Shown here: piece by piece, positions 20,391-64,000 of the stretch
Layout of the letters: each line of letters opens with the position of its first letter
Numbering within the stretch: the stretch's first letter is position 1
IMG/VR virus record: IMGVR_UViG_3300010935_000101
Coordinates: 29,068 to 93,067 of that record
Direction: 5' to 3' (one strand)
Source of the DNA: a virus
Length of the DNA: 64,000 nucleotides
The notes under the pieces: generated by a model
What the model saw: only the letters and a program-made list of their open reading frames with translations
What the model was told of the DNA's origin: nothing
Database searches by the model: none
Translations under genes and position numbers: made by a program

Positions 20391-23300
20391 TTAGTCCTTA
20401 CATTCTATTTTTTTATTCACATTCTTATTAAATACTTCACTTGGAGCTATTATAACTTCTTCTTGCTTAGCAGTTTCTTTTGATTTATTAATTACTGCTT
20501 CTAACTGTTTTCTCCAATCTTTATCCATCATATTAATTGTTGGTATTCCCTTTACTCTGGCCATTTCAACTGCTTGTCCAGTTCCACCTTTTGGTCTCAT
20601 TGGATTTTTAGTCTCTTCTGAGTTGAATAGCACAAAGTCAACTGGAGTGTCCAGATTTTTACCAAACACTTGATTAGTATTTCTAGCCATCAACTTTAAT
20701 CCGCCTTCTCTCAAGTACTGTGGAGCGGGATGTAATTCTTTAGCAATTGCTTTTGTTTTCTCAGTAGCCATTTCTGGACCGAACAACTCTTTATTTGTTG
20801 TGCCATCACTGAATGCTTTATCTGCACCCTCTTCTTTGTTACCGAATGTTTTACCAGTTTGTAGTTTGTAACCTTTTTTCGCTAACCAAGCAGCAACTTT
20901 AGTCATCAGTATTAGTGTTTCTTTTGATGTTTGTCTACTACCAATCCCAGCATATGTCATTGTGTTTTGACCTTTTTGGTAACTTGGCAAACTATCGAAT
21001 ATTGGTCTATTTGAACTTTCTACAGCAGTCTCTTTTGTATCATTTGATATACTTTTTATGTCACTCTTAACCCACACCCCATTTACCAATTCTCTACCAA
21101 ACTTTGTTAAGTCTATTTTTGTGACTATCTTAGCATCAGAGTTTGCTAATTTGTTTGTTATGTTGTTGTAGTGCCAGCTTTGGCTATCCTTCTTTTTTGA
21201 CTCTGAATATTCACCAATTATCTCAACTGTATCATTCGCACTTAGTAAATCCCATAACTTATTATCAACTTTCAGTTTACCGTCTGATTTTTCACTAATC
21301 TGCGCAATGTTTGCTTTGGACTCAACTTGTGTTTTCTTATTTGCTATATCACTCAAGTTGAACACATAATCAGTATTTGCATTTAATTTTATTCCCTTAT
21401 TAGCAAACTCTTTTTTCGTTACTTTTCTGTCTGCTGCTAACTTATTCTGTAGCAATCTCTTAATTGTTTCAATTGCTGGGAATTCTTTAGCTCTAGTTTC
21501 ACTAGCATCTATTTTAGCTATTCCTGAACCCATCTGGAATAAGTGTCCTGAGTAGTAGCCCTTAGCACTATTTGCTAATCTCTCTTTATTCACTTCTTCT
21601 GCTGTTTCCAGGCTATCTAACATCTTACCAATTCCTAACCCAATTCTGTTTGTTTCGTTAGTGTAGTCCTCTCTTAACTCACCTTCTGGGCGTAATCCTA
21701 TGTTAGCAAACATTCTTTTCTTTTGTTTTTCATCCATTGTTGCAAGCATATTTTCTAGCATTCCTAGTTGGTCAGCAACTATTGATCTATTGAATCCTGT
21801 CTCAATCATGTTTGTATTGTAACTATCTGCTGTATCTGTTAGCATTGCTTTGTCTAAGCTCAGCACTACTGCATCGTATACGTTTCCTCCAGCATATTTG
21901 CCACCTAACTCTCTATTTAGCACATCTAGCATCATTCTGCCATCAATTGCGTGTATTGATATCGTTGGTGCTGCACCAGTATTTACTGCTGGCTTAAACT
22001 GCTTGATTTGACCACCAACTGATGTATTCCCAACTGTAACCTTAGTTGAGTGAATTCCGCCTTTGTCACCAGTCTTGTTCAGTGATTGATTAACTCTTCC
22101 TTCAGTTTCATCCCATACTATATTGTGCCCATGTCCTTCTGCAGTTAATTTAGCATTTATGCTCTGCATATCTTCTTTACTTAATCTGTATGTCTCACCT
22201 TTGTGTCTACCTTTACCGTACTTAGCATCTAGGAACTTATTTACCTCATCTGCCAGTCTTATTTGATATGCTTCGAACACCAACATTTCTATTGCTTTAG
22301 CGGCATCTCTATTTTTATTAACGAATCCTAATCTGCTATCGAATGCAGTTTCTATTGCTGTACCGAAAGTTTCCTTAATTACTGAGTCTATTGTGTCGAT
22401 TGCTGGCTGTATGTCTAGTGCAAGCAGTTGTTCCCATCTCTCAGAAGGCGTTTCAACTTTAGCACCGAACTCATTCACGTACTTCTCTTTTGGAATGAAT
22501 GTTTTTACGAACTCTAACTCTTTATCAGCATTTTCACCAGCTTTTAATTTCTTACTAGCTGTCTTTATTGCTTTTACTAATGTATTAACACCTAGTGAAT
22601 ATGTCAATTTCTTTTTAATTGAACTGATACTAGCACCGTATATGTACACCATAACTGGACTTTTTGCTATTGAACGAATGTTCTTCAAGTTTAACTCACC
22701 AATTTGATTTAGCATTGCTAGTTGTTGTATTTCTAACTCACTTGGTTTATCCAATCCCTCTAACTTAGTTTTGTACGCTTGTACTTCACCAATCATTGCC
22801 ACACCAATTGTTGAGTACAGATCTTTGAACGTATCATCTGATTCTAATTCTTTCCTTAATTCTGCAAGTTTTTCGCCTGATAAACCTTTCATTTTCTCTT
22901 CAATTTCAGCAGCATGCTTCTTACCAGCTTCAATTAGTGCTCCTGGTGTGAACTCAACTGTATCCCCCAACCATTTCTTAACATATGCCTCTAACTGTGG
23001 CTTTCTAGCCTCTGTGTATATACCACCTTTTTCTGCCAATCTTAGTGCTAAGTCACTACCAATCTGTAGTAGTGTAAGTATCATACCACTTGTTATCGCA
23101 TCTATCTCTAAGTTCGCGTGTGTTTCTATTTTCGTGCCATCTTTTATTGCCTGGTCCCAGTCTACTAGCAACTCTATTGAGCTTATTCCGTGGTGCCCTT
23201 CTGAATCAGCAAACACTTCTGCCATTGCTTCAGCATCTATCTTACCATCTCTCAGTGCTTCGTATGCTTGTTTTATTGCTACTTGAGTTTTATTCGGATC

Positions 23301-26300
23301 CCCATCTTTATCTAGTTGTGGTTCAATCTCAATTCCTTTGTCTGTTACTTTGAATACGTCATTGAAGTTAGCAGTAGCTGTTTCAGCACTTAGCTTGTCT
23401 GGATCCATATCTAACCCTTGCATGATGCTTGCCTCTAGCATTTGTCTGCTATCTGCATCATTTACGTCCACTGACTCTGTACTACCTTCAGCAACTACGA
23501 ATTCTCTATGTAGTTTACTCTCTTGGTATTGTATGTCATTCAGTATTGTGTATCTTCCACTTACTGTTTGGCCCCAATCTAAGTAAAACTCTTTACCTTT
23601 TGTTGCTTTAGCGAATGTCTTTAATATCTCCCATTCCCTAACTAATTTGTCATTTCTAGCCCTTTGTGCATCTATTTCACTTACGTGCAATCCGGCAGTA
23701 TCTACATCTACGTAACCCATTGCTTTTAGTGCTTCTTTTTCATCCATCTCTAACCATCTTTGTAATCTTGGACTAATTTTGTATGCAGTCTTTTCAGTGT
23801 TATTTAGGAATTCTACTGACTTTGCATCCATTGGATTCTTAGTATTCATCACTGTTCTATTAGCATTATCTTTTGGTGCTTTCAAACTTGGTAATGGCCT
23901 ATTTCTATTTTCATTCAGGTATTGTAGTTTATTGATTGCTTTAGTTAATGCACCTCTTTCCACTCCAATATTTTCCCAATTTGTTTTTATTAAGTTTTGG
24001 TTTTTTCCACCAGCTTCTAGTGGTTTACCATCCATTGAACCATTTTCAGTTGCTATCACCTGTACTAGTACACCCAACGTTGACTTGAATGACTCCTCTG
24101 TGAACTCTGGAGTAGTCTCATTTAGTCTGATTCCTAAGGCTTGATATACTTCACCACCAATGTCTTTTCTAATACTTGCTGAATTCACGTATCCTTGAGC
24201 AGCTTCTTGCTTTACTCGGATTTGCTCATCTGGATCTGTAATTCCTAAGTACTGCGCCATTTCTGACTCATCAAAGCTTAGTATCTTACCAATCATTGCT
24301 TGTGAATCTGCAAGCATCTTAGCTGTGAAGAACTTTAGTATATTTTTTGTTTGCTCATCAATCTGCAATTTGCCATCTTTTGTTGTACCAAGTAACTCTA
24401 TTATGTCAACCGGAGCTGACGTTTCTTGTTGCTCTAGCACTCCTGTGAATTCACTAACTTGTTTTATTGACTTAACTGGATTTCTGCCTGATGTTTTAAC
24501 GTGCACTTTGTCACCATCTGCTGATTCCACTATGTATGCTTGTTTATCCGCATCTTGTAGTTTATCACCTTTTACCACTACTTTCTTGATTGGCACATAC
24601 TTATTAATGTGTTTTATTACTAACCCATTATTATCTATGTTTTTACTGAGGGTATTATTACCAACTATTATCGTGCCAATTTTGGTATTGTTTAAGTAAT
24701 CGGCCATTGTCTTGAAGTTCTCTAGCAGCTCAACTTTACTCTCAGCATCTGTTATGAAGAACTCTTTGAATCCTTTTGGAAGCACTTCTAGTAGTCTATC
24801 AGCCTTAGCGAACGGATTTCCAGTTAATTGTCCGAACACACTATCATTTGCTCTCTTAACTAGTCTGTGTATTGGGCTATTTGCTGGGTAGTTAATTAGC
24901 AATCTGCCTATTAATTTAGCACTTAAGCTTGTCTTACCAGCTTCTATTTCTTTTAGTTCATCTCTTAGTTCAGCTATTTTATCATTTTTAACTAATTCTA
25001 GTGCTCGATTCATTGCTGTTCCAGGAGCTTCTAGCTTACCGTCTTTCTTTAATTGTCTTTTAGCTATTACTCTTTCACCATTAACATCAACTACTGGTGT
25101 ACCATACAATTCTTCATCTATTTTAGTAATCGTACCAATTGTTGTCTTAACTGGCTCACTTGTAAACTCAGCTTCAATTGCATTGATAGCATCTAGTATT
25201 GTTTGTAGCTCAGCATTAACTTTACGGTATTGCTTGTTTGTTTTCTTTAGCATTTTATCTAATCTATTGATTTGCTTTATCATTTGCTTCACTAACTTAT
25301 CAATCTGTGCAACCAATCCAGCAAGTATACTTTTTGCTTCTGTGTCGTACTTTCTGTTCATTCTTTTATCTAGGGCTGTCTCAAGTCTGTCAAGCATCTT
25401 ACCAAGTCTTGTTCTATCCTCTTGTAAGTCCCCAAGCTTCTTAGCGTAGTACTCTTTCACATGCTTTTTAACATTCATATCTTTAACACCATCAATTAAT
25501 GCACTTAACTCTTTATTAACAAATTCTATCTTTGCTCTAACTTCACTTAGCGGTCCATTATCTGATTCAACTTGTTCTGGGAGGACACCATCATCTATTG
25601 TTGCTTCGACTGGTTCTTGGATAAGTCTTTCCTCTTCCAGTCGAGTAAGCTCTGCTATGTCTTCTTCACTCATATTTTTGTAGTCTGAGTCGAACCCTTT
25701 TTCATTCATTATCTTTTTAACTTCTTGCTTAGGTTCATCTTCACTTTGACCCATCTTCACTTCTGAAGCTTCTTTCATTCTTTGTTGTTTTGTAGTACTT
25801 TCTAAGCTGCCTTTTGGCTTAGCAACTTTCTTTGGTTGTTTAGCTTTCTCTATTAACTCATTATATCTTTTAGTCTGGCCTGGAGTAAGTTTTAACTCAC
25901 CAGCAGCGTATCTAGTCACGAACTCTTGTTGTTTCTTAGTTAAGTTACTTAGGTCTTGAGTTTCTTTTACCTCTGTCTTAGTAGGCTTCACAGGGACCCC
26001 AACATCAGCAGACTTCTGATTAGCTTTAAGTTTTTCTGAACGTGCAATCTCCGCTTCTCTTTTTTCTTTTTTAATACGTTCTACATCTTTTACATAAGTC
26101 GTATCTTTATACTTTTGATCATTTAACATAGTGGTTTCTCTATTAGTCACTGTAACATATATACTTCTAAGACGTTTTCGCTCTTTACCATTAGCATTTA
26201 TGGCTGCTTCAGTCAGAGCATTTTTATATTCTTCCAATTCTTTTACAGTCATCTTTTTAACGTTTTTAATAACTTTAAATTTAACCTCTGTTTTTTCAGT

Positions 26301-29294
26301 AACTGATGCTACTTTTTCTGAGTTTTTGTACTCATCCATCAGCACTGCTTTGTTATCTACTACATCGCCAATCTTTGTCTTATTTTCGCCTGCAACTAGT
26401 TGGATTGATTCTGAACCATCTGTTTCAACTTGGAATGCAAGTGCACCTTTTATTCCCTTTGGTTTTGTGGTTTCATTTAGTATTTTTTGTCTTCTTTCTA
26501 GTTCTTTATTAGCCTCTAGTGCAGCATTTCCAGCAGTTTCTAGCTCTGCTTCATACGATTTTCTATCAGTTTCACTAATACTTTTTAACCCTTTAGCAGT
26601 CTTCAGTAAGTTCTTAATAGTTACCAACATTGCGCCATTTTCTTTTGCCAGTGTACCGATAAGTACATCAGTCTGGTATGCTACTTTATTTTTGGTTGCT
26701 CGTAACTTTCTTAGTCTACTAGCAGCAAATCCAGTCAATCCTTTTAGCGTTACTGCAGTTGTACCCTTGGCCTCTATCACAGCAGCTGCTTTAGCTTTTG
26801 GGTTCAACATCTTCTTAGTTAATTCATTCTCATATACTGTCAATCCTGGTCTATTTGGGTCTGCATGCAGATTATTACCTGATTCGCTAACTATGAATCC
26901 CAGATCAGCAAACTCACTGTTTACTGCAGTTGAATCTTTGTTTTCTAGGTAATTCTTTATTGTATTTTTTAACTTTGTTATTGATTCTGTTGTATCCCCA
27001 ATATCTTCTGAACCTCTAATAGATTTAACTGCAGCTTCAGTAGCATCAATTGTGTCCTGTATTTCTTTTATTTGAGATACTATTGTTTCTTGAATACCTG
27101 TTTTTTCATTAACTGCTTCACCCAAGTCTTTTAGCTTCTCAGATGACACGTCTGTATTCTGGTTTATTGCTTCAACTAGTTTTCTAGAGCTCTCATACAC
27201 AGTCTCATCAACCATATCTTTAAGGTTGAAATCTACTTTTTCATCTTTATCTAGTTTTGCTATTGTTTTGTACACATTATCAATTGCTGTTGCATCGCCA
27301 GATTTAGTTGCTTTATCTAGTGCTTCTTTAATTATCACACCATATGTTGTCTTCTTACTAGCACTTGCATCCAAGTTGTCAACCATTTTACCGTGTATAG
27401 CTTCAACCTGTGACACAACATTCTCAGTATCACCTGCTATTATTGTATCAATTGTTTTAACTTTTAGTGGTGTTACATATTCTCTATCTTCTCTCAGTCT
27501 TTTTTGTACTGGGGTTTCTGTTGCTCTCTCAACAGCTGTCTTACCAGCATTGAATACTTTTGGGGCTGCGTTTATAACCACCCCTGGAGTTGAACCAGCA
27601 ACTGATTGGCCTATACCTATTAACAGTCCTTGATAACCAGCGTGGCGTATAGCTTTTTGAGATGCCTCATCCAATAGACCCCATACTTTTTTACCATCAT
27701 ATTTAGTAGTGCCAACCCTCTCAATTAACATTCCAAGAACCTCTTGAAAAGATTCAGTACTGAATTCTTCAGTACCTGCAGCAGCAAGTTTAGTAGAACT
27801 TTTAACTATTGCTCCAATGGTCTTAGCAACGATACTCTCTCCGGCCTTTATTGGAAGGGCTTTAAACATGATATCAATGACCTTCTTATTAACTCCACCC
27901 AAACCTTTACCAACACCAAAAGACAGTTTAGCTGCAACAAAATCTGCACCTAATTCTACTGCTGTACCACCAGCTACTGCTAAGGTAGTTTTTAAATCAG
28001 CCGCTTCCCCTGTCACTTTTAATCTTTCATCCAGATGTTGATTAGTAGCACCTGCTAACATTGCCATAGGCTGTTTACCTAATGCGTACATGTACGATAA
28101 TGAATCTGCTATAGCTTGAGGTATAGCTTCTTTGTGGTTATATACTTCCTTGAGTGTGTTAGCTACTTTTGTATAGATTGGTTCATTACTACCCCATATT
28201 CCGTCCATGCTATTATTAAAGTCCTCTGTAATTTTTTGGTATTTAACATCATTAGCTCCGATCAGTGTATTGAATGCTTGTTTTGATGTCTTACCATCTT
28301 TTTCATAACCCCAGTAGTGTCTGACTTGTCCATCACTATCTACTTGGAATCCTAATTTACTTAAATTTGGTAAATCTTCTTTGGTTATATCTCCACCAAA
28401 AGCTCTTGCAGTTTTTTGTGCTAAATTAGCTCCAGCATCAAAGAAACCATCTGCTACATCAGCAGCAGTAGCTCCTATTGTTGCAGCAACACTCTTAGCA
28501 GCATTTTCCCAGTATGGAGCATTAGCTTCTTGTTCTTGTATGTATTTAGCCAATGCTTCTTTAGTTGGTGTATTATTATCACTTCTGGAATTTTTTACTT
28601 TACCTGCAAAGGCATTTTGCAATGGATCTATTGTTGCTTGTACTGTTACTTCTTCACCATACAAGTTTCCTAATGCTGCTCCACCTCTTGAACCGATGTC
28701 TCCAAGCTTTTGACTAATTATTGGCACGTTTAAGGGTACTTGCTGTGTATTGCCAAATTCATCTTTGTACTTCCCAGTTAGATTAGTTTGTTCCACACCT
28801 CGAATTAGTGGAGCAACCCATCTATCTTCTCCAGGAGTTCTTGCTAAGTCAGCAAGTTTTTGTATTTGTTGTTGATTAGCTACATCTAACATATCTTGTT
28901 CTGTGACTGTGTCTACAGGCTTATTAAGTATCATTCCAACTTGATTTCGTTGCATTTGCATGGAATACGTTGATTTACCAATCTCTCCAGCAGCTCTACG
29001 CTCTTTACTAATTCCTTGCATGTCATAAGGATTAGTGCCATGCTGTGTTTCAACAGCATCATACCTATTTCCATATGGATCTACTTCTCTAGAGTAGCCT
29101 AGGTTTTTAGTAATTGCTGTATCAGCATCGTATAGACCTTGTAGTGTATCTTTAGAGTATTTGGAAGTGTCTCCTAGTTTAGCAACTTTTTCTGCTGTTC
29201 TTTGATTTAGTTTATCTATTTTCTCTTGGAGGGTATCTTTTTGAGCTGTTGGACTGTATCCTGCAATCAGTGTTGCGAATTCTTCATTAGTCAT
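20391..29294 (-). CDS. Virion-encapsidated RNA polymerase (N4 gp50-like), 2967 aa, with C-terminal SLOG domain
   Basis: TVSGR (T/DxxGR), EIDAITSG (motif A), RSIAKSPVMVYIYG (motif B), NVYDAV (motif C). Confidence 0.92.
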   Translation of the reverse strand: MTNEEFATLIAGYSPTAQKDTLQEKIDKLNQRTAEKVAKLGDTSKYSKDTLQGLYDADTAITKNLGYSREVDPYGNRYDAVETQHGTNPYDMQGISKERRAAGEIGKSTYSMQMQRNQVGMILNKPVDTVTEQDMLDVANQQQIQKLADLARTPGEDRWVAPLIRGVEQTNLTGKYKDEFGNTQQVPLNVPIISQKLGDIGSRGGAALGNLYGEEVTVQATIDPLQNAFAGKVKNSRSDNNTPTKEALAKYIQEQEANAPYWENAAKSVAATIGATAADVADGFFDAGANLAQKTARAFGGDITKEDLPNLSKLGFQVDSDGQVRHYWGYEKDGKTSKQAFNTLIGANDVKYQKITEDFNNSMDGIWGSNEPIYTKVANTLKEVYNHKEAIPQAIADSLSYMYALGKQPMAMLAGATNQHLDERLKVTGEAADLKTTLAVAGGTAVELGADFVAAKLSFGVGKGLGGVNKKVIDIMFKALPIKAGESIVAKTIGAIVKSSTKLAAAGTEEFSTESFQEVLGMLIERVGTTKYDGKKVWGLLDEASQKAIRHAGYQGLLIGIGQSVAGSTPGVVINAAPKVFNAGKTAVERATETPVQKRLREDREYVTPLKVKTIDTIIAGDTENVVSQVEAIHGKMVDNLDASASKKTTYGVIIKEALDKATKSGDATAIDNVYKTIAKLDKDEKVDFNLKDMVDETVYESSRKLVEAINQNTDVSSEKLKDLGEAVNEKTGIQETIVSQIKEIQDTIDATEAAVKSIRGSEDIGDTTESITKLKNTIKNYLENKDSTAVNSEFADLGFIVSESGNNLHADPNRPGLTVYENELTKKMLNPKAKAAAVIEAKGTTAVTLKGLTGFAASRLRKLRATKNKVAYQTDVLIGTLAKENGAMLVTIKNLLKTAKGLKSISETDRKSYEAELETAGNAALEANKELERRQKILNETTKPKGIKGALAFQVETDGSESIQLVAGENKTKIGDVVDNKAVLMDEYKNSEKVASVTEKTEVKFKVIKNVKKMTVKELEEYKNALTEAAINANGKERKRLRSIYVTVTNRETTMLNDQKYKDTTYVKDVERIKKEKREAEIARSEKLKANQKSADVGVPVKPTKTEVKETQDLSNLTKKQQEFVTRYAAGELKLTPGQTKRYNELIEKAKQPKKVAKPKGSLESTTKQQRMKEASEVKMGQSEDEPKQEVKKIMNEKGFDSDYKNMSEEDIAELTRLEEERLIQEPVEATIDDGVLPEQVESDNGPLSEVRAKIEFVNKELSALIDGVKDMNVKKHVKEYYAKKLGDLQEDRTRLGKMLDRLETALDKRMNRKYDTEAKSILAGLVAQIDKLVKQMIKQINRLDKMLKKTNKQYRKVNAELQTILDAINAIEAEFTSEPVKTTIGTITKIDEELYGTPVVDVNGERVIAKRQLKKDGKLEAPGTAMNRALELVKNDKIAELRDELKEIEAGKTSLSAKLIGRLLINYPANSPIHRLVKRANDSVFGQLTGNPFAKADRLLEVLPKGFKEFFITDAESKVELLENFKTMADYLNNTKIGTIIVGNNTLSKNIDNNGLVIKHINKYVPIKKVVVKGDKLQDADKQAYIVESADGDKVHVKTSGRNPVKSIKQVSEFTGVLEQQETSAPVDIIELLGTTKDGKLQIDEQTKNILKFFTAKMLADSQAMIGKILSFDESEMAQYLGITDPDEQIRVKQEAAQGYVNSASIRKDIGGEVYQALGIRLNETTPEFTEESFKSTLGVLVQVIATENGSMDGKPLEAGGKNQNLIKTNWENIGVERGALTKAINKLQYLNENRNRPLPSLKAPKDNANRTVMNTKNPMDAKSVEFLNNTEKTAYKISPRLQRWLEMDEKEALKAMGYVDVDTAGLHVSEIDAQRARNDKLVREWEILKTFAKATKGKEFYLDWGQTVSGRYTILNDIQYQESKLHREFVVAEGSTESVDVNDADSRQMLEASIMQGLDMDPDKLSAETATANFNDVFKVTDKGIEIEPQLDKDGDPNKTQVAIKQAYEALRDGKIDAEAMAEVFADSEGHHGISSIELLVDWDQAIKDGTKIETHANLEIDAITSGMILTLLQIGSDLALRLAEKGGIYTEARKPQLEAYVKKWLGDTVEFTPGALIEAGKKHAAEIEEKMKGLSGEKLAELRKELESDDTFKDLYSTIGVAMIGEVQAYKTKLEGLDKPSELEIQQLAMLNQIGELNLKNIRSIAKSPVMVYIYGASISSIKKKLTYSLGVNTLVKAIKTASKKLKAGENADKELEFVKTFIPKEKYVNEFGAKVETPSERWEQLLALDIQPAIDTIDSVIKETFGTAIETAFDSRLGFVNKNRDAAKAIEMLVFEAYQIRLADEVNKFLDAKYGKGRHKGETYRLSKEDMQSINAKLTAEGHGHNIVWDETEGRVNQSLNKTGDKGGIHSTKVTVGNTSVGGQIKQFKPAVNTGAAPTISIHAIDGRMMLDVLNRELGGKYAGGNVYDAVVLSLDKAMLTDTADSYNTNMIETGFNRSIVADQLGMLENMLATMDEKQKKRMFANIGLRPEGELREDYTNETNRIGLGIGKMLDSLETAEEVNKERLANSAKGYYSGHLFQMGSGIAKIDASETRAKEFPAIETIKRLLQNKLAADRKVTKKEFANKGIKLNANTDYVFNLSDIANKKTQVESKANIAQISEKSDGKLKVDNKLWDLLSANDTVEIIGEYSESKKKDSQSWHYNNITNKLANSDAKIVTKIDLTKFGRELVNGVWVKSDIKSISNDTKETAVESSNRPIFDSLPSYQKGQNTMTYAGIGSRQTSKETLILMTKVAAWLAKKGYKLQTGKTFGNKEEGADKAFSDGTTNKELFGPEMATEKTKAIAKELHPAPQYLREGGLKLMARNTNQVFGKNLDTPVDFVLFNSEETKNPMRPKGGTGQAVEMARVKGIPTINMMDKDWRKQLEAVINKSKETAKQEEVIIAPSEVFNKNVNKKIECKD

Positions 29295-57164: not shown

Positions 57165-57315
57165 TTGTGGACTCCTTTAATAAGTTTTTTGGTTTTTGTA
57201 TATTGAGTATAATGACCTCACCGTTTTCATATTTATTGTATTGCCACACAGGTACTTGAATAGTTACTGTGAGGGTTTTGTATTCTATAGGAATATTATT
57301 AGTAAATGCTTCCAT
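57154..57315 (-). CDS. 53-aa hypothetical protein (not in track)
   Basis: AAGGAG RBS; MEAFTNNIPIEYKTLTVTIQVPVWQYNKYENGEVIILNIQKPKNLLKESTNGN. Confidence 0.5.
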   Translation of the reverse strand: MEAFTNNIPIEYKTLTVTIQVPVWQYNKYENGEVIILNIQKPKNLLKESTNGN

Positions 57316-57532
57316 ATGTAACTCCTTTTTAATATTAATAAGTATACTACTTAACCCCTTAAGTATACCTTAGGTATGAGGGGAATAATTATAGAAGTGC
57401 AAATCTATATAATATGAGGGGATAGCTTATTACTTATTTTTCGCTCGGGTATGTTTGCAGTACACACCTTAACACGCCTTCGAAGACAAACTGCCCCCCC
57501 ATAGCCAGACCTAGTAACGTCCCTTGATTTCT

Positions 57533-57550
57533 ACAGCTAACGCTGTTTTA
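57533..57550 (+). promoter_or_regulatory. Candidate vRNAP hairpin promoter
   Basis: ACAGC-TAAC-GCTGT-TTTA. Confidence 0.55.
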
Positions 57551-57579
57551 TTAGTACTAGATTACTATAGGAGGTTATT

Positions 57580-57630
57580 ATGACTGAAGAGCAGTACGAC
57601 GCATACTTGGAGTCAATCAACAAGCATTAG
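57580..57630 (+). CDS. 16-aa early peptide MTEEQYDAYLESINKH
   Basis: Strong AGGAGG RBS. Confidence 0.5.
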   Translation: MTEEQYDAYLESINKH

Positions 57631-57648
57631 AGCCTAACGGCTCTTTTA
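57630..57648 (+). promoter_or_regulatory. Candidate vRNAP hairpin promoter (or terminator)
   Basis: GAGCC-TAAC-GGCTC-TTTTA. Confidence 0.55.
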
Positions 57649-57712
57649 CTTATATTACAGTTGCCTTACATTAGTAGGGCTTATCCAATCATATATCTGT
57701 AGGAGGATTAAT

Positions 57713-57991
57713 ATGTTAGTAGCAATAGACCGCAATTCAAGAGAGTATATTCAAAAGAACCCAGTTCGTTCTAGTATAGGTGCAGTAGGCTTTGGTGTAT
57801 GCCAATCAGTTAACTTAGCAGTAGATATAGTAGATGTTAGTAGGGATGTAGTTAAGTTGGCTAAGCTATCTATACAAACATCAGTCATTGAAGCTGAAGA
57901 AGAAGCATTAACTGCTCAACTAGAATCAGCAGACAGATTAGCAACTCTAAAAGCTCAGTTAGCTAAGAAGCAAGCTGAGTTAGCTAAGTAG
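57713..57991 (+). CDS. Early protein
   Basis: AGGAGG RBS; coiled-coil C-terminus. Confidence 0.75.
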   Translation: MLVAIDRNSREYIQKNPVRSSIGAVGFGVCQSVNLAVDIVDVSRDVVKLAKLSIQTSVIEAEEEALTAQLESADRLATLKAQLAKKQAELAK

Positions 57992-57996
57992 TATTA

Positions 57997-58015
57997 GGGC
58001 TTAACAGCCCTTTTA
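57997..58015 (+). promoter_or_regulatory. Candidate vRNAP hairpin promoter (or terminator)
   Basis: GGGCT-TAAC-AGCCC-TTTTA. Confidence 0.55.
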
Positions 58016-58072
58016 CTTATATCAGGTGCTAGTAATAGCTTATCAATTATTAATCCATAGGAGGATATTATA

Positions 58073-58393
58073 ATGGCAAAGTTAAATTTAAAAGACAATC
58101 AAGTAAATGAAGTATTAGGCAAGTTGACTCCAGCTTGGCAAGGCTGTGTTAGTGTAGATACGCTAGCTAAAGCACAAGTACCAAAGTCATCTAGCCGTAA
58201 TTGGCTATTTGGAACTTTAATGAACAAGAAATTCATTAAGCTATCAAGAGCTTGTAATGGTTTTAAGAAAGGAGAAGTTGTATCATTGGTTGATATATAT
58301 GACTCAGACTCAGCATCTAATCTTGCTAGTCTAATGATATATAGACTTGGTCATAGCGGTCTTAGCAAGACCCCACAAATAGTGGAGGCCTAA
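58073..58393 (+). CDS. Early protein
   Basis: AGGAGG RBS. Confidence 0.75.
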   Translation: MAKLNLKDNQVNEVLGKLTPAWQGCVSVDTLAKAQVPKSSSRNWLFGTLMNKKFIKLSRACNGFKKGEVVSLVDIYDSDSASNLASLMIYRLGHSGLSKTPQIVEA

Positions 58394-58395
58394 CA

Positions 58396-58572
58396 ATGGC
58401 TTCCTACTACAAAGTTTGGCAATCATCCGGAGATATTGAGGAAACTCAGTATCGTCCGGAGGATCTTGAAGATGAAGAGTATATGTGGGAGTTTCAATAC
58501 TGCGAATGGTATGAAACTTTAGTAGAGGCTATCAATGCCTCTATTGATACAAAACTAGCTCTAAAGGATTAA
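58396..58572 (+). CDS. 58-aa acidic early protein (not in track)
   Basis: GGAGG RBS; about 15 D/E. Confidence 0.6.
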   Translation: MASYYKVWQSSGDIEETQYRPEDLEDEEYMWEFQYCEWYETLVEAINASIDTKLALKD

Positions 58573-58656
58573 TATGTATTATAAATTCAAGCGTTTATAT
58601 GTTGTATATTCAACTGCATTATATATGCGGTTCAAAATACTTGCGTATAAAATATT

Positions 58657-58683
58657 CTAGGCTCTTCGGAGTCTAGTTTGTTT
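58657..58683 (+). terminator. UUCG intrinsic terminator
   Basis: CTAGGCTC-TTCG-GAGTCTAG-TTTGTTT. Confidence 0.7.
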
Positions 58684-58704
58684 CCCTCAATACAAAACAC
58701 ACGC

Positions 58705-58848
58705 TACACTACTCTGATAGTAGGTCCAGGACGGATTTACAAATATTTACATTTATTTGGAGTGATCCGTTTGCTACGCTGCGCTACGCAAGCCGGTAGC
58801 AACTATCAACCTGTTGAACCTGGACTCAGTACACTACGCCGATAGTAG
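58705..58848. other. Structured element: 19-bp direct repeats around a four-way junction
   Basis: TACACTAC(T/G)C(T/C)GATAGTAG at 58705 and 58830; nested inverted repeats between. Confidence 0.6.
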
Positions 58849-58851
58849 TTG

Positions 58852-59214
58852 TCAGTTATGTTTGAGTTTATCTACTGTAGTTCTAATGGCCTGTTCTTGT
58901 TTTTCTGTGATAGTTCCATTAGTCTGCAACCATTTAGCTACGCTCTGAGTAAACTCATTACTTGGTATTGTTTCTACTCCCACATAAGCACACAGTACTA
59001 CCAAATGTTCTTGTTCTTTTTGTAGCTTCTCCAATTTTTGCTGTTTTATTTCCTCTATAGCAACTTCTTTGTAAGCTTGCTTTTGGATTTCTTCATTACG
59101 CTTATCTTCTGCACTGAGTGTAACTGATATCTGGACCATGCTTAGTTCGGTAGCATCTAAACCACTTATTAGTAGCTTTAGTGCTTTTTGTTTTACTTTA
59201 TCTCTATTTCTCAT
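58852..59214 (-). CDS. Hypothetical coiled-coil protein
   Basis: Track labels it +, but CAT at 59212-59214 and TCA at 58852-58854 show it is on the minus strand. Confidence 0.7.
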   Translation of the reverse strand: MRNRDKVKQKALKLLISGLDATELSMVQISVTLSAEDKRNEEIQKQAYKEVAIEEIKQQKLEKLQKEQEHLVVLCAYVGVETIPSNEFTQSVAKWLQTNGTITEKQEQAIRTTVDKLKHN

Positions 59215-59938
59215 TGTAAATTAGTCCCTTAACAAATTTATAGTTAGCTAGTTCAACTAATGCTATTCTAGTTTGCACATCAGTAATCTTATTTATCTTT
59301 ACAAACTCATAGTACCACTCTTTACCTTTTTGAGTCTTAATTGCTGAGTCTTCAGACCATACATGCTCTTCATCAGCAACTGCTTTTTCTAAGTCTCTTT
59401 TGATATAAGCATAGATTGTTGATACTTTATTACTAGTTGTGTCGAACCCTTCAGCACTAACTATGTTTACTGAGTGCCCATCGAACAATGGTTGAATGAA
59501 TTCTGGTCTATGCTTAGCTATGAATTTACCATTCTTTAGTAATCCTTCACTTATTCCCCAAGCTCTTGCTACCTTTAGGTTATTTCCAGAACCTGGTCTG
59601 AGTGAGTCTCGGACGGCACTAATAACCTTCTGAGTGTGGGACAAGTTTCTCCTAGTATTCACTGACTTCACATAGATTCTTACTTCAGCTTCAGTAAGCT
59701 TATCATCTAATTCTCTGTACATTATATGGGAACCCAGCATCACTAATGATTTTTGCCTGCATCTACCATCAATTACTTTACCATGCCATAGCACTATTGG
59801 GTCTTGTTGTTGGTTATCAGCAATATCTTGTGTTAGCACAGCTTGTTCAACCTCATCTGCCATTGGCACTAAACCAGCCAACTCATCATTTATCTCAAAC
59901 GGTCCATCTTTACTCAATCTAACTTTTACATCTGTCAT
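59204..59938 (-). CDS. ParB/Srx-like N-terminal domain protein
   Basis: DI..N.Q..PIVLW.G.VIDGRCR...N.RRNLS; AAGGAG RBS. Confidence 0.7.
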   Translation of the reverse strand: MTDVKVRLSKDGPFEINDELAGLVPMADEVEQAVLTQDIADNQQQDPIVLWHGKVIDGRCRQKSLVMLGSHIMYRELDDKLTEAEVRIYVKSVNTRRNLSHTQKVISAVRDSLRPGSGNNLKVARAWGISEGLLKNGKFIAKHRPEFIQPLFDGHSVNIVSAEGFDTTSNKVSTIYAYIKRDLEKAVADEEHVWSEDSAIKTQKGKEWYYEFVKINKITDVQTRIALVELANYKFVKGLIYNEK

Positions 59939-60197
59939 ATCAACTCCTTTGTTTTATTACTGTAATTGTATCAATCTCTAGCTTAAATTCACCTTATTTT
60001 ATAGGGAATCAAGTATGATTTGAGGAAGGTTGCTAGTTCAATCGGACAAATCTGTCCGTTTTTGACTCCTGTTAAGTGTAATATATACATGTTCTGTCCG
60101 ATTTCCCCTCATAATTTAATTTATCATGAGGGAGTGTCTCACTCTCGTTTGGTTACAATACAAAACCACCAAACCAACCCTTTATTTTATCATTTCC

Positions 60198-60270
60198 AAA
60201 TTGTACTAAAATTGTACATAATTTATCAAATTGTACAATAATTGTACATAAATTCCAAAACTGTACAATT
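60198..60270. repeat. Five AATTGTAC(A)-type repeats
   Basis: Copies near 60199, 60210, 60229, 60240 and an inverted one at 60262-60270. Confidence 0.8.
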
Positions 60271-60303
60271 TCTATACATTTCTCCTAATTCTCATAACTT
60301 TCT

Positions 60304-60325
60304 TAATGCTTACGCATTATTATTT
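60304..60325 (+). promoter_or_regulatory. Candidate vRNAP hairpin promoter
   Basis: TAATGC-TTAC-GCATTA-TTATTT. Confidence 0.5.
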
Positions 60326-60398
60326 ATATTACATTCTCCTATGGAGTATTTACCTTTACTTTAGCTTATTGCTATTGTAGAGGTATTGCTTTTTTCTC

Positions 60399-60420
60399 TA
60401 GTGCTTACGCACTATTATTT
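60399..60420 (+). promoter_or_regulatory. Candidate vRNAP hairpin promoter
   Basis: TAGTGC-TTAC-GCACTA-TTATTT. Confidence 0.5.
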
Positions 60421-60554
60421 TTAAAGAATATTGTAATTCTAGCTTGCCAGCTTTTTGAGAGACCATATTCAACTCGTAGTAGCCTTTAAGTAGGCTACTA
60501 TTCTTTTTTTAATTGCCAACCCGTTTGGCCCACCTTAAATACATAGGAGTATAA

Positions 60555-60881
60555 ATGAACAAGTACATAAAACAATTAAATACTACAGGGAATATAACTT
60601 CACCCTATTCAGAAGTGGAAGCTTATGGAGACAAGTTGCTTATGGAACTTATGAAACTGAACACATATGGGTATACACCATCAGACTCTAAAGTAATAGA
60701 GTTTATCAATCAAATGGATTCTAGAATTGGAGAGACTCAATCAGAGGAATTGAAGAAACAGTATGTTGAAGGAATGACTTATATAAAAAATGTAATAAAA
60801 TTTGATATAACAAGTCAATTTCAGGATCTGGTACTAAACATAGAACTAGAAGCAGATAAAGAATGTGCAGGTATTTTATAA
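60555..60881 (+). CDS. Early hypothetical protein
   Basis: AGGAG RBS. Confidence 0.7.
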   Translation: MNKYIKQLNTTGNITSPYSEVEAYGDKLLMELMKLNTYGYTPSDSKVIEFINQMDSRIGETQSEELKKQYVEGMTYIKNVIKFDITSQFQDLVLNIELEADKECAGIL

Positions 60882-60933
60882 CCTGCTCAACCCAGGCTTA
60901 AATGCCTATAACCAAAATACACAGGAGCACAAT

Positions 60934-61092
60934 ATGAAAGTAGAACAAGCAGAACAAGTACAAGAAACAATAACAATGTATAAACATTGTATGTTAAGTT
61001 TAAAGGAAGTCGAGCAACGCTTAGGAACCATAATGGGTGGTGCTTGGTCAATAAGTTATATACTAGGGTCATTTACCTTAGTAAGCAAATAA
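60934..61092 (+). CDS. Small hypothetical protein
   Basis: Start moved to ATG 60934 (AGGAG). Confidence 0.5.
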   Translation: MKVEQAEQVQETITMYKHCMLSLKEVEQRLGTIMGGAWSISYILGSFTLVSK

Positions 61093-61117
61093 CCCTACCA
61101 AATTTAAGGAAAATTAC

Positions 61118-61357
61118 ATGAAGTTAAAAGACATCGCAAAGTTACCCTTCTCAGTCCGCTATATAAAAACTACCGACATACACAGTCAAACTTATACTAT
61201 AAATGTCAATGGCACAGAATTAATAGACCTACGTTTGGATAATCATATCCAACATGATGAGGTTATGTCAGATGGAGCATTAGCAGATTATTACTACGCA
61301 CAGTATCCGATAGATAGTTGGGAACCTTGTAGTAAGTATGGACATACCGTAAATTAG
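61118..61357 (+). CDS. Hypothetical protein
   Basis: AAGGA RBS. Confidence 0.6.
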   Translation: MKLKDIAKLPFSVRYIKTTDIHSQTYTINVNGTELIDLRLDNHIQHDEVMSDGALADYYYAQYPIDSWEPCSKYGHTVN

Positions 61358-61404
61358 CCTCATTCCCGTCTGAGCAATGGCGGGACAATCTAAAGGAGAT
61401 TAAC

Positions 61405-61731
61405 ATGGCATTTAAACGTAAGTGGGAATGTGAATATTGTGGTTATGAAATAACAGCAACAACAGAGGAAGCAGAAGGTATGTTATGTCCTTCCTGTGAG
61501 GGATATGAGCCTGCACCAGAACCTGAAGAGAGCCCTAAATGGTCAAAAGAAGAGCGTAACGAAAGATATAGAATTGCCTATCATTTACGTGGAAGTTCTT
61601 GGGAAGGAACTGAATCTTATATGTACTTAGGAAATTTAATAGATGGTCAAGCCGAAGTTTATCTTGCATTGAATGAACCTAGATCAGACAAAAAACATAG
61701 ACTTAACAAGGCTATAAGAGAGGGAAAGTAG
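61405..61731 (+). CDS. Zn-ribbon protein
   Basis: CEYC...CPSC; AAGGAG RBS. Confidence 0.65.
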   Translation: MAFKRKWECEYCGYEITATTEEAEGMLCPSCEGYEPAPEPEESPKWSKEERNERYRIAYHLRGSSWEGTESYMYLGNLIDGQAEVYLALNEPRSDKKHRLNKAIREGK

Positions 61732-61777
61732 GTTAATAAAGAATTCATTTTGAGTTCTTTTTTTCAACCAACCATTT

Positions 61778-61799
61778 TGTGCCTTACGGCACATTATTT
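61778..61799 (+). promoter_or_regulatory. Candidate vRNAP hairpin promoter
   Basis: TGTGCC-TTAC-GGCACA-TTATTT. Confidence 0.5.
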
Positions 61800-61833
61800 T
61801 TATTGATTTGAATCAAACCACAAAGGAAATCAT

Positions 61834-62157
61834 ATGATTATCAGAAACGAATACAAAGGTGACCTAGCATTGGGTCGTAGAGTCAAAACAACTGCTGTGG
61901 CATCGTTAGATACCATAACAGAGACTGCACAAGGTATTGCGGATGTTGTAACAACTGCTAGATCAGTAGTTGAATTAGTTCATGGTAGCTTACAACCAGC
62001 TATCATGGAACAACGAATTGAACTAGCCACTGTTGGTGCCAAAGGTCTAAGAGACCTAGTAGCATTGGGAATGACTAATGAAGAAGCTCACAGCTATCTA
62101 CAAATGTCATATCAAGCATCAACTAGTACAATTGCTAAAGCCGCTAAGTCAGCATAG
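61834..62157 (+). CDS. Early protein, likely paralogue of 57713-57991
   Basis: Shared D.V...R.VV.L...S.Q...E pattern. Confidence 0.7.
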   Translation: MIIRNEYKGDLALGRRVKTTAVASLDTITETAQGIADVVTTARSVVELVHGSLQPAIMEQRIELATVGAKGLRDLVALGMTNEEAHSYLQMSYQASTSTIAKAAKSA

Positions 62158-62160
62158 TAA

Positions 62161-62887: not shown

Positions 62888-62931
62888 CAACATAGGGCTG
62901 TAACAGGCCCTTAACTAACCAAGGGGAAAAT

Positions 62932-64000
62932 ATGATACTAGCACAGATATTGGCAGGCAGACTAAGAATGCCTAACATACATGACATGAAAAGTGTATAT
63001 GGATTGGAAGTATACAAACAATTAGACGGTATGTTCTCAGCAATGTGGGAGGCATATCTAAGCAGAGGTCAGAGACAACTTGATAATGGTAGTATGACAA
63101 ATACTATATCTTTACCATATTGGGCTAAGAGAATTAAACATCCAAAAGCAATGAACCAAGCGCTCAAGCTATTGAGTGACCATGGTTGGATCACAGTATC
63201 AACTAGACCTAATAACAATTGGTCTGAAGCGCATATCAATGAATCTAAGTTACTTACTTATGTAACTCAATCTCAACTTAACAAAGTGCGTATGTATAAC
63301 AAATTTAACAAGTATAAACTAGAATTCCATAATCTTGACCAAGACTTTGGTGCTAACAAAATGAAAATTAATGGAGCAGTACATACAGTTAAACATAGCT
63401 GTAACGGCTTTGCAAAAGCTGGTAAAGTACCATTTCAGTATGATACTAACAAACTATTTGTTAACTTTGATGTCGTATTACGTGAAGTTAACAAGGGCAT
63501 CGAAAATATGATTGAGACTTATCCAGCAATCATTGATGACTATGCTAATTATCGTGAGATAGGTAAGAATGTACTTGAATCATTAATCTATGACGAAGGA
63601 ACATACAATGCTGGTCCTAGAACATCTGACCCTAGACATCGTAATAACTCTGGGTATCTCAACAAGGTAGCAAATCCAGTTGGGTTCAAAGTAATGCGTG
63701 GATTGCTAACTATCCCAGTTGAGCACCGTAACATATGTACTCCAAATGGGCTTCGCAATAAATACTTATTCATAGCTGAATTAGTTGGCTTCAAAGCAGG
63801 TTCAGTTGATGCTAAAACACAGTTCGGTAGATTAGCATATTATAATAGAACTATAACAAAGTGTGATGTCGAGGACATCTGGTTAGAGCGTTTGTATGCT
63901 GACATCGACAGTGCGTTTGGTAACAAATGGACTATGACAAGAAGTAACAAATTAGCAAAGATTAGTGAGTATAAATCAGGTTCTAATTGGCATATAGCTA
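62932..64000 (+). CDS. T7-like RNA polymerase subunit (N4 RNAPII large-subunit-like), truncated by window end; not in track
   Basis: Hand translation open to 64000; SDPRHRNN...NPVGFKVMRGLL aligns with T7-family DxRGR...NPQG.D..KGLL. Confidence 0.7.
   Translation, partial: MILAQILAGRLRMPNIHDMKSVYGLEVYKQLDGMFSAMWEAYLSRGQRQLDNGSMTNTISLPYWAKRIKHPKAMNQALKLLSDHGWITVSTRPNNNWSEAHINESKLLTYVTQSQLNKVRMYNKFNKYKLEFHNLDQDFGANKMKINGAVHTVKHSCNGFAKAGKVPFQYDTNKLFVNFDVVLREVNKGIENMIETYPAIIDDYANYREIGKNVLESLIYDEGTYNAGPRTSDPRHRNNSGYLNKVANPVGFKVMRGLLTIPVEHRNICTPNGLRNKYLFIAELVGFKAGSVDAKTQFGRLAYYNRTITKCDVEDIWLERLYADIDSAFGNKWTMTRSNKLAKISEYKSGSNWHIA

What the first reader, a model, noticed from the sequence alone, without database searches (positions are those of the whole stretch)
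57533..61799. Six conserved-loop hairpins: candidate vRNAP promoters with a four-base GTWA template loop
Stems vary but loops are fixed: TAAC followed by TTTTA (57533, 57630, 57997) and TTAC followed by TTATTT (60304, 60399, 61778). On the template strand the loops are GTTA or GTAA, five of six closed by C-G. N4 vRNAP recognises template hairpins with 3-nt loops followed by an A-run (established). A tetraloop version would be a new specificity. A weaker variant lies at 62894-62911 before the RNAPII gene. Two copies follow stop codons and could instead be terminators.
Basis: partly seen in the sequence, partly recalled or inferred. Interest (0 to 1): 0.65.

Follow-up and report, generated by a model that had tools for sequence, protein, structure and literature searches.

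The report
Tetraloop hairpin early promoters, N4-like phage
Six small DNA hairpins at the front of this uncultured N4-like phage genome are most likely the start signals read by the RNA polymerase the phage injects; they are an expected feature in an unusual four-base-loop form that swaps with the classical three-base loop at matching sites in related phages.

Summary
Six perfect 5-6 bp hairpins with TAAC or TTAC loops lie on the + strand at the stated coordinates. A structure-plus-sequence model finds no other copy in the 96.8-kb genome.

The two supposed classes are one family: stem, T-N-A-C loop, stem, then a TTAyTTaTAt tail. An invariant A lies 9-10 nt after the loop, where N4 has its +1.

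A relative (L162) has the same six sites with compensatory stem changes. Its first three tails lack a T-run. Two other lineages (L165 type and L172) carry N4-like TTC or TGC triloops at matching sites. L172 mixes triloops and tetraloops.

On the template strand all 21 loops read G...A and are mostly closed by C:G. These are the two known "mini-hairpin DNA" motifs, GCGNAGC and GCGNNAGC. Stems are Watson-Crick only, and several copies have no co-directional gene upstream.

Best reading, at about 0.7, is N4-type hairpin early promoters for the virion RNA polymerase. The tetraloop is a tolerated variant rather than a separate specificity. The 62894 hairpin is not a member. No start sites have been mapped.

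This scan has noted variant hairpin promoters in many other N4-like phages, so novelty is moderate.

The parts
57530..57565 (+). H1: hairpin 57533-57546 (ACAGC-TAAC-GCTGT) plus tail. The invariant A at 57550 is the predicted +1, 31 nt before the first early start codon (57581). Nothing co-directional lies upstream.
   Evidence: 37.1 bits; orthologue in L162 at 2369
57627..57662 (+). H2: hairpin 57629-57644 (AGAGCC-TAAC-GGCTCT) plus tail TTTTACTTATATTAC. Invariant A at 57648. It overlaps the stop codon of a 16-aa micro-ORF and lies 65 nt before ORF 57713.
   Evidence: 38.3 bits
57994..58030 (+). H3: hairpin 57996-58011 (AGGGCT-TAAC-AGCCCT) plus tail. Invariant A at 58015. It is the only copy closed by T:A. 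The L162 orthologue has its stem flipped G<->C.
   Evidence: 37.9 bits
60302..60337 (+). H4: hairpin 60304-60319 (TAATGC-TTAC-GCATTA), template GCGTAAGC. Invariant A at 60322. It is the first + strand element after the inverted - strand module. The L172 orthologue has the identical stem but a TTC loop.
   Evidence: (43.1 bits)
60397..60432 (+). H5: hairpin 60399-60414 (TAGTGC-TTAC-GCACTA), in tandem 95 nt after H4. Invariant A at 60417.
   Evidence: 37.9 bits
61776..61811 (+). H6: hairpin 61778-61793 (TGTGCC-TTAC-GGCACA) plus tail TTATTTTTATTGA. Invariant A at 61796, 38 nt before ORF 61834. Orthologues in L165 and L172 have TTC triloops.
   Evidence: (41.3 bits)
62894..62911 (+). NOT a member: an imperfect hairpin (GGGC..GCCC) before the RNAPII-like gene. 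Every relative has a hairpin at this position, but loops and tails differ, with no TTAyTT tail and no T-run.
   Evidence: (no hit at E<=10)
60476..60511 (+). Ordinary terminator-like hairpin (9-10 bp stem, 6-nt loop, T7 run) between H5 and ORF 60555. It serves as a contrast to the family.
20391..29294 (-). 2967-aa ORF carrying the virion-RNAP polymerase module. Residues ~1700-2600 match Schitoviridae vRNAPs at 22-26% identity. This is the presumed reader of the hairpins.
62932..63999 (+). 5' part of a 660-aa ORF (it runs on beyond the window) with T7-like motifs A, B and C. It is a putative fused RNAPII lying downstream of all six hairpins.
   Evidence: weak

Best explanation
The six elements are N4-type DNA-hairpin early promoters, most likely read by the injected virion RNA polymerase.

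Proposed mechanism. On the template (-) strand each element can extrude a 5-6 bp hairpin capped by 5'-GTTA-3' or 5'-GTAA-3'. Such a GNNA tetraloop, with a sheared G.A pair and usually a C:G closing pair, is the four-base sibling of the GNA triloop in N4 promoters. Both belong to the unusually stable 'mini-hairpin DNA' motifs GCGNAGC and GCGNNAGC. The polymerase would bind the hairpin, measure along the single-stranded AT-rich tail, and start at or near the invariant A 9-10 nt past the loop. That would drive the small early genes and, further on, the RNAPII-like gene.

What is shown: the anatomy, the confinement to the early region, the covariation, the interchange of triloop and tetraloop at matching sites, and the fit of the template strand to the mini-hairpin rule.

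What is inferred: hairpin extrusion, which polymerase reads the sites, and the start site.
For: (1) Same layout as N4 P1-P3 taken from NC_008720. N4 P2 is GAAGC-TCC-GCTTC-TTTT-G; window H2 is GAGCC-TAAC-GGCTC-TTTT-A.

(2) A single family. The 12 copies from the window and L162 align with an invariant loop T, A, C and an invariant tail T-A..T..TA.

(3) Covariation. In 21 copies from four lineages 89.7% of cells are paired, 55 cells show changes on both sides, none shows a change on one side only, and there is 1 G.U in 126 cells. 0 of 500 shuffles reach this.

(4) Confinement. Model R1 hits only these six in the whole genome. In L172's 90-kb record it hits only the early region, all on one strand.

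(5) Position. H1 is the first element after the divergent late block. H4 and H5 follow an inverted module. In L165 three tandem copies lie in a 980-nt gene-free gap directly before the homologue of ORF 61834. There is no transcript upstream for them to terminate.

(6) The tails of L162 H1-H3 have no T-run.

(7) All 21 template loops are G...A and 17 of 21 are closed by C:G. H1, H4 and H5 are exact GCGNNAGC. The literature reports that GCGNAGC and GCGNNAGC are both extraordinarily stable and that the N4 promoter is a GCGGAGC mini-hairpin (PMC13037366; d(cGNNAg) is cited in PMC10085684).

(8) The phage encodes a vRNAP homologue.
Against: No RNA 5' ends or biochemistry exist for this phage or any close relative.

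Five of the six copies also satisfy a simple terminator scan, and H2, H3 and H6 follow stop codons.

The N4 determinants are not all kept. There is no 3-nt loop with a central purine, and the -8 position varies.

More distant relatives lack the family: L003, L001, L168, L169 and Alteromonas phage AD45-P1.

A second motif confined to the early region, ATGAGGGG...TTTTCGGG, is conserved more widely and could be the real early signal.

A seventh copy in L162 (3848-3863) faces a convergent gene with no obvious ORF downstream.

The physical genome end was not located.
Confidence: 0.7

Rival explanations
1. They are intrinsic (factor-independent) terminators, or terminator-like RNA 3'-end hairpins, that punctuate the early operons.
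For: They are GC-rich stems followed by T-rich tails, and 5 of 6 are called by the terminator scan. H2, H3 and H6 lie just after stop codons. The seventh L162 copy lies at the end of a + operon facing a convergent gene.
Against: H1, H4, H5 and the three tandem L165 copies have no co-directional gene upstream.

The tails of L162 H1-H3 lack a U-run.

The loop ends and specific A residues in the tail are invariant, which terminators do not need.

There are almost no G.U pairs.

The family is absent from the other ~90 kb, including the ends of all other operons.

The region's plainly terminator-like hairpins look different: a 9-10 bp stem with T7 at 60476, and a TTCG loop at 58657.

N4 promoters P2 and P3 give the same hairpin-plus-T look.
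Confidence: 0.1
2. They are hairpin promoters for the phage's second, T7-like polymerase (RNAPII), as reported for the middle promoters of Pseudomonas phage LUZ7, and not for the virion polymerase.
For: LUZ7 middle promoters are GC-rich hairpins with stems of >=6 bp and loops of 3-4 nt about 15 bp upstream of the start site (PMC9163698). The stems and loops here fit that description.
Against: All six copies lie upstream of the RNAPII-like gene itself and at the very start of the early block. The ~45 kb of + strand genes downstream of the RNAPII-like gene, presumably the middle class, have no copy. The identity of the 660-aa ORF as an RNAP rests only on motif-level matches.
Confidence: 0.1
3. 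They act in the RNA, as protein-binding or processing hairpins. Examples would be nut/boxB-like antitermination sites, RNase sites or 5' stabilisers. Transcription would start further upstream, for instance at the ATGAGGGG motif.
For: The loop ends are conserved while the stems vary, as at boxB. UAAC and UCAC belong to the UMAC tetraloop class (own knowledge). ATGAGGGG motifs lie 120-180 nt upstream of both hairpin clusters.
Against: H6 has no ATGAGGGG motif nearby. Stems are strictly Watson-Crick, with 1 G.U in 126 cells. Triloops TTC and TGC replace the tetraloops at matching sites, which fits the DNA GNA/GNNA rule on the other strand but no known stable RNA loop class. The conserved tail keeps a fixed register from the 3' side of the loop.
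Confidence: 0.06
4. They are single-strand initiation (primase) signals or origin elements. Mini-hairpin DNA is also known at phage G4 and plasmid ssiA priming sites.
For: Mini-hairpins of the GCGNAGC type occur at priming sites (PMC13037366).
Against: There are six co-oriented copies, each 30-140 nt before an early gene with a strong ribosome-binding site. Their spacing and tail parallel N4 promoters, and none lies near the replication genes.
Confidence: 0.03

Closest known systems
Coliphage N4 early promoters P1, P2, P3 (vRNAP DNA-hairpin promoters; Glucksmann 1992, Gleghorn 2008, review PMC4496689)
   Same: Both have a 5-7 bp stem and a template-strand loop that begins with G and ends with A and is closed by C:G. 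A short T-run follows on the coding strand, then a purine about 10 nt after the loop. Both lie in the early region, co-oriented with the early genes and upstream of the RNAPII gene(s), in a phage that encodes a giant virion RNAP.
   Different: The loop here is 4 nt (GTTA or GTAA) instead of 3 nt (GGA or GAA), so there is no single central -11 purine. The -8 base varies. The predicted +1 is A, not G. The conserved tail runs about 12 nt further than in N4. There are six copies instead of three. The vRNAP is split and only 22-26% identical in the polymerase module.
Pseudomonas phage LUZ7 early and middle hairpin promoters (ONT-cappable-seq, PMC9163698)
   Same: LUZ7 also has many hairpin promoters (nine early ones), some in tandem. 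Its middle promoters show that loops of 3-4 nt occur in N4-related phages.
   Different: LUZ7 early loops are 3 nt and the start site is a G 13-14 nt from the loop centre. The LUZ7 hairpins with 3-4 nt loops belong to the middle class, whereas the ones here sit at the head of the early region.
Mini-hairpin DNA GCGNAGC / GCGNNAGC and the d(cGNNAg) stable tetraloop (PMC13037366; Nakano et al. 2002, cited in PMC10085684)
   Same: The template strands of H1, H4 and H5 are exact GCGNNAGC (GCGTTAGC, GCGTAAGC). H2 and H6 are CCGNNAGG.
   Different: Those motifs are a physical-chemistry class, not a genetic element. Their formation here has not been shown.
Rho-independent terminators
   Same: A GC-rich hairpin followed by T-rich sequence.
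   Different: The hairpins here have fixed loop ends, a fixed tail with invariant A residues and Watson-Crick-only stems. Some have no upstream gene, and in L162 some have no T-run.

Membership tests
N4-type vRNAP DNA-hairpin early promoter | Inverted repeat giving a 5-7 bp stem whose sequence may vary as long as pairing is kept | tested here: met
   Six perfect 5-6 bp stems. All 6 pairs covary in 21 copies, and 0 of 500 shuffles reach the observed score.
N4-type vRNAP DNA-hairpin early promoter | Three-nucleotide loop with a central purine (-11) on the template strand | tested here: not met
   The window loops are 4 nt (template GTTA or GTAA). Matching sites in L165-type phages and L172 do have GAA or GCA triloops.
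N4-type vRNAP DNA-hairpin early promoter | Template loop closed by a G...A (sheared) pair on a C:G closing pair (mini-hairpin) | tested here: met
   At sequence level, 21 of 21 template loops are G...A and 17 of 21 are closed by C:G. The structure itself cannot be tested here.
N4-type vRNAP DNA-hairpin early promoter | Conserved -8 G on the template strand, contacted by the specificity loop | tested here: not met
   The second base of the coding 3' arm is C, G, T or A across the copies. In N4 P1-P3 it is always C.
N4-type vRNAP DNA-hairpin early promoter | Fixed short spacer from the stem to a purine +1, about 10 nt after the loop | tested here: inconclusive
   An invariant A lies 9-10 nt after the loop in the 12 copies from the window and L162, and a nearly invariant one in all 21 copies. 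No start site has been mapped.
N4-type vRNAP DNA-hairpin early promoter | Confined to the first-injected early region, co-oriented with the early genes, upstream of the RNAPII genes | tested here: met
   The only six copies in 96.76 kb lie within 4.3 kb, all on the + strand and before the RNAPII-like ORF. The same holds in L172's record. The physical genome end was not determined.
N4-type vRNAP DNA-hairpin early promoter | Used by a virion-packaged single-subunit RNAP on single-stranded or supercoiled DNA with SSB | not testable with these tools
   A vRNAP homologue is encoded. Packaging and activity need experiments.
LUZ7-type RNAPII (middle) hairpin promoter | GC-rich hairpin with a 3-4 nt loop placed in front of middle genes | tested here: not met
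   The shape fits, but no copy lies anywhere in the + strand block downstream of the RNAPII-like gene.
Rho-independent terminator | Hairpin followed directly by a U-run at the 3' end of a transcription unit | tested here: not met
   H1, H4, H5 and the L165 triplet have no upstream unit. L162 H1-H3 lack a U-run. H2, H3 and H6 could double as weak terminators.

The most novel reading that the evidence does not exclude
In this clade of ~90-100 kb N4-related marine phages the virion polymerase may recognise a promoter hairpin by its sheared G.A-closed cap and the 3' side of the loop, not by a single central -11 purine as in N4. The same enzyme would then accept both GNA triloops and GNNA tetraloops, which coexist in L172. 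The window lineage would have moved entirely to tetraloops. That would be a natural test set for how single-subunit polymerases read DNA shape.
Probability: 0.45. Interest if true: 0.6.

Novelty: new variant of a known kind. Interest (0 to 1): 0.45.

Why it matters
Hairpin promoters read on single-stranded DNA are known in biochemical detail only for coliphage N4, where a 3-nt loop with a central purine is taken as a defining feature.

Here a distant branch with a split virion polymerase keeps the same overall design but uses four-base GNNA caps. Related phages show one-base loop insertions or deletions at matching sites, for example TAATGC-TTAC-GCATTA against TAATGC-TTC-GCATTA.

This links promoter evolution to the two known ultra-stable DNA mini-hairpin motifs. 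It also gives ready-made natural variants for testing what the polymerase actually reads.

In practice the motif (stem, T-N(N)-C loop, stem, TTAyTTaTAt) can be used to annotate early promoters in this uncultured clade. It is an incremental advance, not a new kind of system.

Tried and rejected
- Megablast of the region against GenBank phages gave no match.

- A first loose IUPAC pattern was uninformative, with 17 hits against 16.5 expected.

- Pattern scans of IMG/VR for the two tails returned about 150 loci, essentially all chance. None had multiple hairpins.

- The nearest IMG/VR relatives (L001-L003, 50% identity in the RNAPII-like gene) and the cultured Alteromonas phages AD45-P1..P4 (31%) are syntenic but lack the family. 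Their hairpins have other loops and tails that I could not interpret.

- I first misread the L157/L159 hairpins as TTCG tetraloops, which would have favoured an RNA-level role. A re-parse showed 5-bp stems with TTC triloops.

- Sigma-70 promoters were rejected. Matches do not exceed shuffles, and there is no conserved -35 or -10 at the hairpins.

- No tRNA or Rfam family lies in 57000-64000.

- DNA folding energies favour the template strand by only 0.3-0.4 kcal/mol, because the model carries no GNNA bonus.

- The AlphaFold model of the 660-aa RNAPII-like protein, built from a 3-sequence alignment, was unusable (pLDDT 38). Pfam, PDB and hhalign gave only motif-level hints.

The near-complete genomes holding P0005, P0041 and P0067 could therefore not be fetched to tabulate loop type against vRNAP sequence.
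Full report
**Observation.**

| Copy | Coordinates | Stem-loop-stem |
|---|---|---|
| H1 | 57533-57546 | ACAGC-TAAC-GCTGT |
| H2 | 57629-57644 | AGAGCC-TAAC-GGCTCT |
| H3 | 57996-58011 | AGGGCT-TAAC-AGCCCT |
| H4 | 60304-60319 | TAATGC-TTAC-GCATTA |
| H5 | 60399-60414 | TAGTGC-TTAC-GCACTA |
| H6 | 61778-61793 | TGTGCC-TTAC-GGCACA |

On the - strand the loops read GTTA or GTAA, and five of six are closed by C:G.

The window is bases 29068-93067 of a 96,760-bp contig whose ends overlap, which indicates a circular assembly. A scan of the whole genome on both strands finds no other TWAC hairpin with a GC-rich stem and a T-rich tail. Five such hairpins are observed against 0.04 expected, with a maximum of 1 in 200 first-order Markov simulations. 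H4 falls just under the GC cut-off used there.

**Genomic setting.**
The 2967-aa ORF at 20391-29294 (-) matches virion RNA polymerases of Schitoviridae at 22-26% identity over residues ~1700-2600. It has no Pfam or PDB sequence hit. The phage is therefore a distant N4 relative.

The closest cultured relatives by the 660-aa ORF are the ~100-kb Alteromonas podoviruses AD45-P1..P4. They were described as N4-related with a split vRNAP, and no hairpin promoters were reported for them (PMC3821669).

The region is laid out as follows:
- Late genes run leftward up to 57315.
- From 57533 small ORFs with strong Shine-Dalgarno sites run rightward.
- An inverted two-gene module (58852-59938, - strand) interrupts them.
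- Rightward ORFs resume at 60555 and lead to a 660-aa ORF starting at 62932.

The 660-aa ORF aligns weakly with N4 gp16 across T7-type motifs A (EIDMSAS), B (RQCYGS) and C (VHDA). Calling it RNAPII is plausible but not proven. A structure prediction from three sequences failed, with pLDDT 38.

**One family, not two classes.**
N4 itself, read from NC_008720, served as a control. On the coding strand its promoters are:
- P1: GTTGC-TTC-GCAAC-TTAT-G
- P2: (AA)GAAGC-TCC-GCTTC(TT)-TT-G
- P3: (AA)GCTGC-TCC-GCAGC(TT)-TT-G, which lies just before gp15

Window H2 reads GAGCC-TAAC-GGCTC-TTTT-A, which is the same design with one extra loop base.

A metagenome scan with the RNAPII-like protein recovered L162, at 72% amino-acid identity. 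L162 carries all six hairpins at matching positions. Its loops are TTAC, TAAC, TAAC, TTAC, TCAC and TTAC, and its stems differ by compensatory changes. H3 changes from AGGGCT/AGCCCT to GCCCT/AGGGC, and H6 from TGTGCC/GGCACA to GCACC/GGTGC.

Aligned together, the 12 copies form a single family: stem, T-N-A-C loop, stem, 0-1 nt, then TTAyTTaTAt. Loop T, A and C are invariant, as is a tail pattern T-A..T..TA. The invariant A lies 9-10 nt after the loop, at 57550, 57648, 58015, 60322, 60417 and 61796. The N4 +1 is the 10th nt after its loop.

Covariance model R1, built from these 12 copies, gave the following:
- It finds only the six copies in the whole genome, at 37-43 bits and with nothing else at E<=10.
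- It finds the six L162 copies plus a weaker seventh.
- It does not detect the 62894 hairpin.

**Triloops at matching sites.**
Relatives L157, L159, L160 and L165 are 64-71% identical in the RNAPII-like protein. They carry three tandem hairpins about 90 nt apart with 5-bp stems and three-base TTC loops. TTC is the N4 P1 loop, and its template reads GAA. They have the same tail:
- ATCAC-TTC-GTGAT-TTCATTTATATTG
- TGCAC-TTC-GTGCA-TTCATTTATACTG
- GTGAC-TTC-GTCAC-TTCATTTTTATTGATAT

The last is the counterpart of window H6, whose tail is ...TTATTTTTATTGATTT.

In L165 the three copies lie in a 980-nt gene-free gap. The gap follows the inverted module and a TGTACA repeat, and it ends directly before the homologue of ORF 61834.

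L172 comes from a 90-kb IMG/VR contig and is 62% identical in the 107-aa protein. It has the six positions with mixed loops:
- TGC (H1)
- TATC (H2)
- TAAC with a bulged stem (H3)
- TTC (H4, H5 and H6)

Its H4, TAATGC-TTC-GCATTA-GTATTTATATTAGATTCTCC, is nearly identical to window H4 over about 38 nt apart from the one-base loop difference. R1 hits L172's 90-kb record only in the early region, all on one strand. It does not hit L003's 100-kb record.

**Which strand matters.**
In all 21 copies the template loop begins with G and ends with A. The loops are GAA, GCA, GTTA, GTAA, GTGA and GATA, and 17 of 21 are closed by C:G. These are the two 'mini-hairpin DNA' motifs GCGNAGC and GCGNNAGC. A recent review describes both as extraordinarily stable and names the N4 promoter (GCGGAGC) as a natural example (PMC13037366). 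d(cGNNAg) is a selected stable DNA tetraloop class (Nakano 2002, cited in PMC10085684), and GNA stability depends on the C:G closing pair (PMC3201870). H1, H4 and H5 are exact GCGNNAGC.

On the coding strand, or in the RNA, the loops are T...C. No single stable-loop class covers both the triloops and the tetraloops there.

The stems are Watson-Crick only. Of 126 cells, 55 carry changes on both sides, none carries a change on one side only, and one is G.U. That is what a hairpin needed on the opposite DNA strand would show. RNA-only helices usually tolerate G.U pairs.

**Promoter or terminator.**
A simple terminator scan calls five of the six copies. It would call N4 P2 and P3 too. Several points argue against terminators:
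- H1, H4, H5 and the L165 triplet have no co-directional unit upstream.
- The tails of L162 H1-H3 (CAGTATTTGT, TGTTATTTAT, TCTTAATTAT) lack a U-run.
- The loop ends and the A residues in the tail are fixed.
- The family is missing from the ends of every other operon.
- The region's clear terminator-like hairpins look different (60476-60501 with T7, and the TTCG hairpin at 58657).

Sigma-70 matches do not exceed shuffles, and none is conserved at the hairpins.

An RNAPII reading, as for LUZ7 middle promoters with 3-4 nt loops (PMC9163698), is disfavoured. All copies precede the RNAPII-like gene, and the long + strand gene block downstream of it has none.

**Caveats.**
- No start site has been mapped.
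- The N4 contacts at -11 and -8 are not preserved.
- More distant relatives (L003, L001, L168, L169, AD45-P1) lack the family.
- A second motif, ATGAGGGG followed about 25 nt later by TTTTCGGG, is conserved upstream of the early block in all relatives and is unexplained.
- The seventh L162 copy has no obvious gene downstream.
- The hairpin at 62894 is positionally conserved in every relative but has variable loops (mostly TTCG), no T-run and no family tail. It is a different element.

**Verdict.**
The six elements are very probably N4-type hairpin early promoters (confidence ~0.7). They are best described as a tetraloop (GNNA) variant that interchanges with the classical GNA triloop within this clade. 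The evidence does not show a separate new specificity.

This scan's notes list many variant hairpin-promoter sets in other N4-like phages. Those notes are unchecked and were used only as context. The general phenomenon is therefore expected. The particular value here is the matched triloop/tetraloop series and its link to the mini-hairpin motifs.

Noticed in passing
window 57376-57460; also 60105-60112 (-) and 60126-60133 (+); L162 2193/2228, L172 2738/2766/3284, L003 3410/3442, L001 3256, L169 1224/1242: An oriented motif, ATGAGGGG followed about 22-28 nt later by TTTTCGGG(T/G)RTG, lies between the late block and the first early gene. It is conserved even in the distant relatives that lack the hairpin family. 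In the window a divergent pair also lies upstream of H4. It could be a terminus or packaging signal, an operator or another promoter type.
   Followed up: partly
window 57581-57631: A 16-aa micro-ORF (MTEEQYDAYLESINKH) with a strong TAGGAGG ribosome-binding site lies between H1 and H2, and its stop codon overlaps the H2 stem. L162 has a 16-aa ORF with a GTG start at the same place.
   Followed up: partly
window 60476-60511: A strong terminator-like hairpin (9-10 bp stem, T7 run) lies between the tandem H4/H5 and the next ORF (60555). There is no ORF between 60320 and 60555. H4 and H5 may produce short RNAs or an attenuated leader. L162 has an ORF directly after its H5 instead.
   Followed up: no
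window 62894-62911 and the same position in L001, L003, L157-L162, L165, L168: Every relative has a hairpin immediately before the ribosome-binding site of the RNAPII-like gene. Its loops vary (often TTCG) and it usually has no T-run. The function is unknown. It could be an RNA 5' stabiliser, a processing site, or a counterpart of N4 P3.
   Followed up: partly
window 60190-60280; L165 2489-2510: TTGTACA repeats lie upstream of the second hairpin cluster and are also present in L165, ahead of its three tandem hairpins. They may be operator sites that control the divergent module or the hairpin promoters.
   Followed up: no
window 62932-63999 (ORF continues to L153:7982); AD45-P1 NC_021532 40472-43835: The 660-aa ORF looks like a fused single-chain version of N4 RNAPII (gp15+gp16). 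It has motif A, B and C residues, but no Pfam or PDB hit. Its AD45-P1 homologue is broken into several ORFs around a GIY-YIG nuclease gene. The AD45 paper reported that no RNAPII was found.
   Followed up: partly
L162 3808-3891; window 58705-58848: The seventh L162 hairpin (ATTGGC-TATC-GCCAAT) is flanked by direct repeats CAC(T)ACTCTGATTGCAG. These resemble the CTACACTACTCTGATAGTAG repeats that bracket the structured GC-rich element in the window's convergent gap.
   Followed up: no
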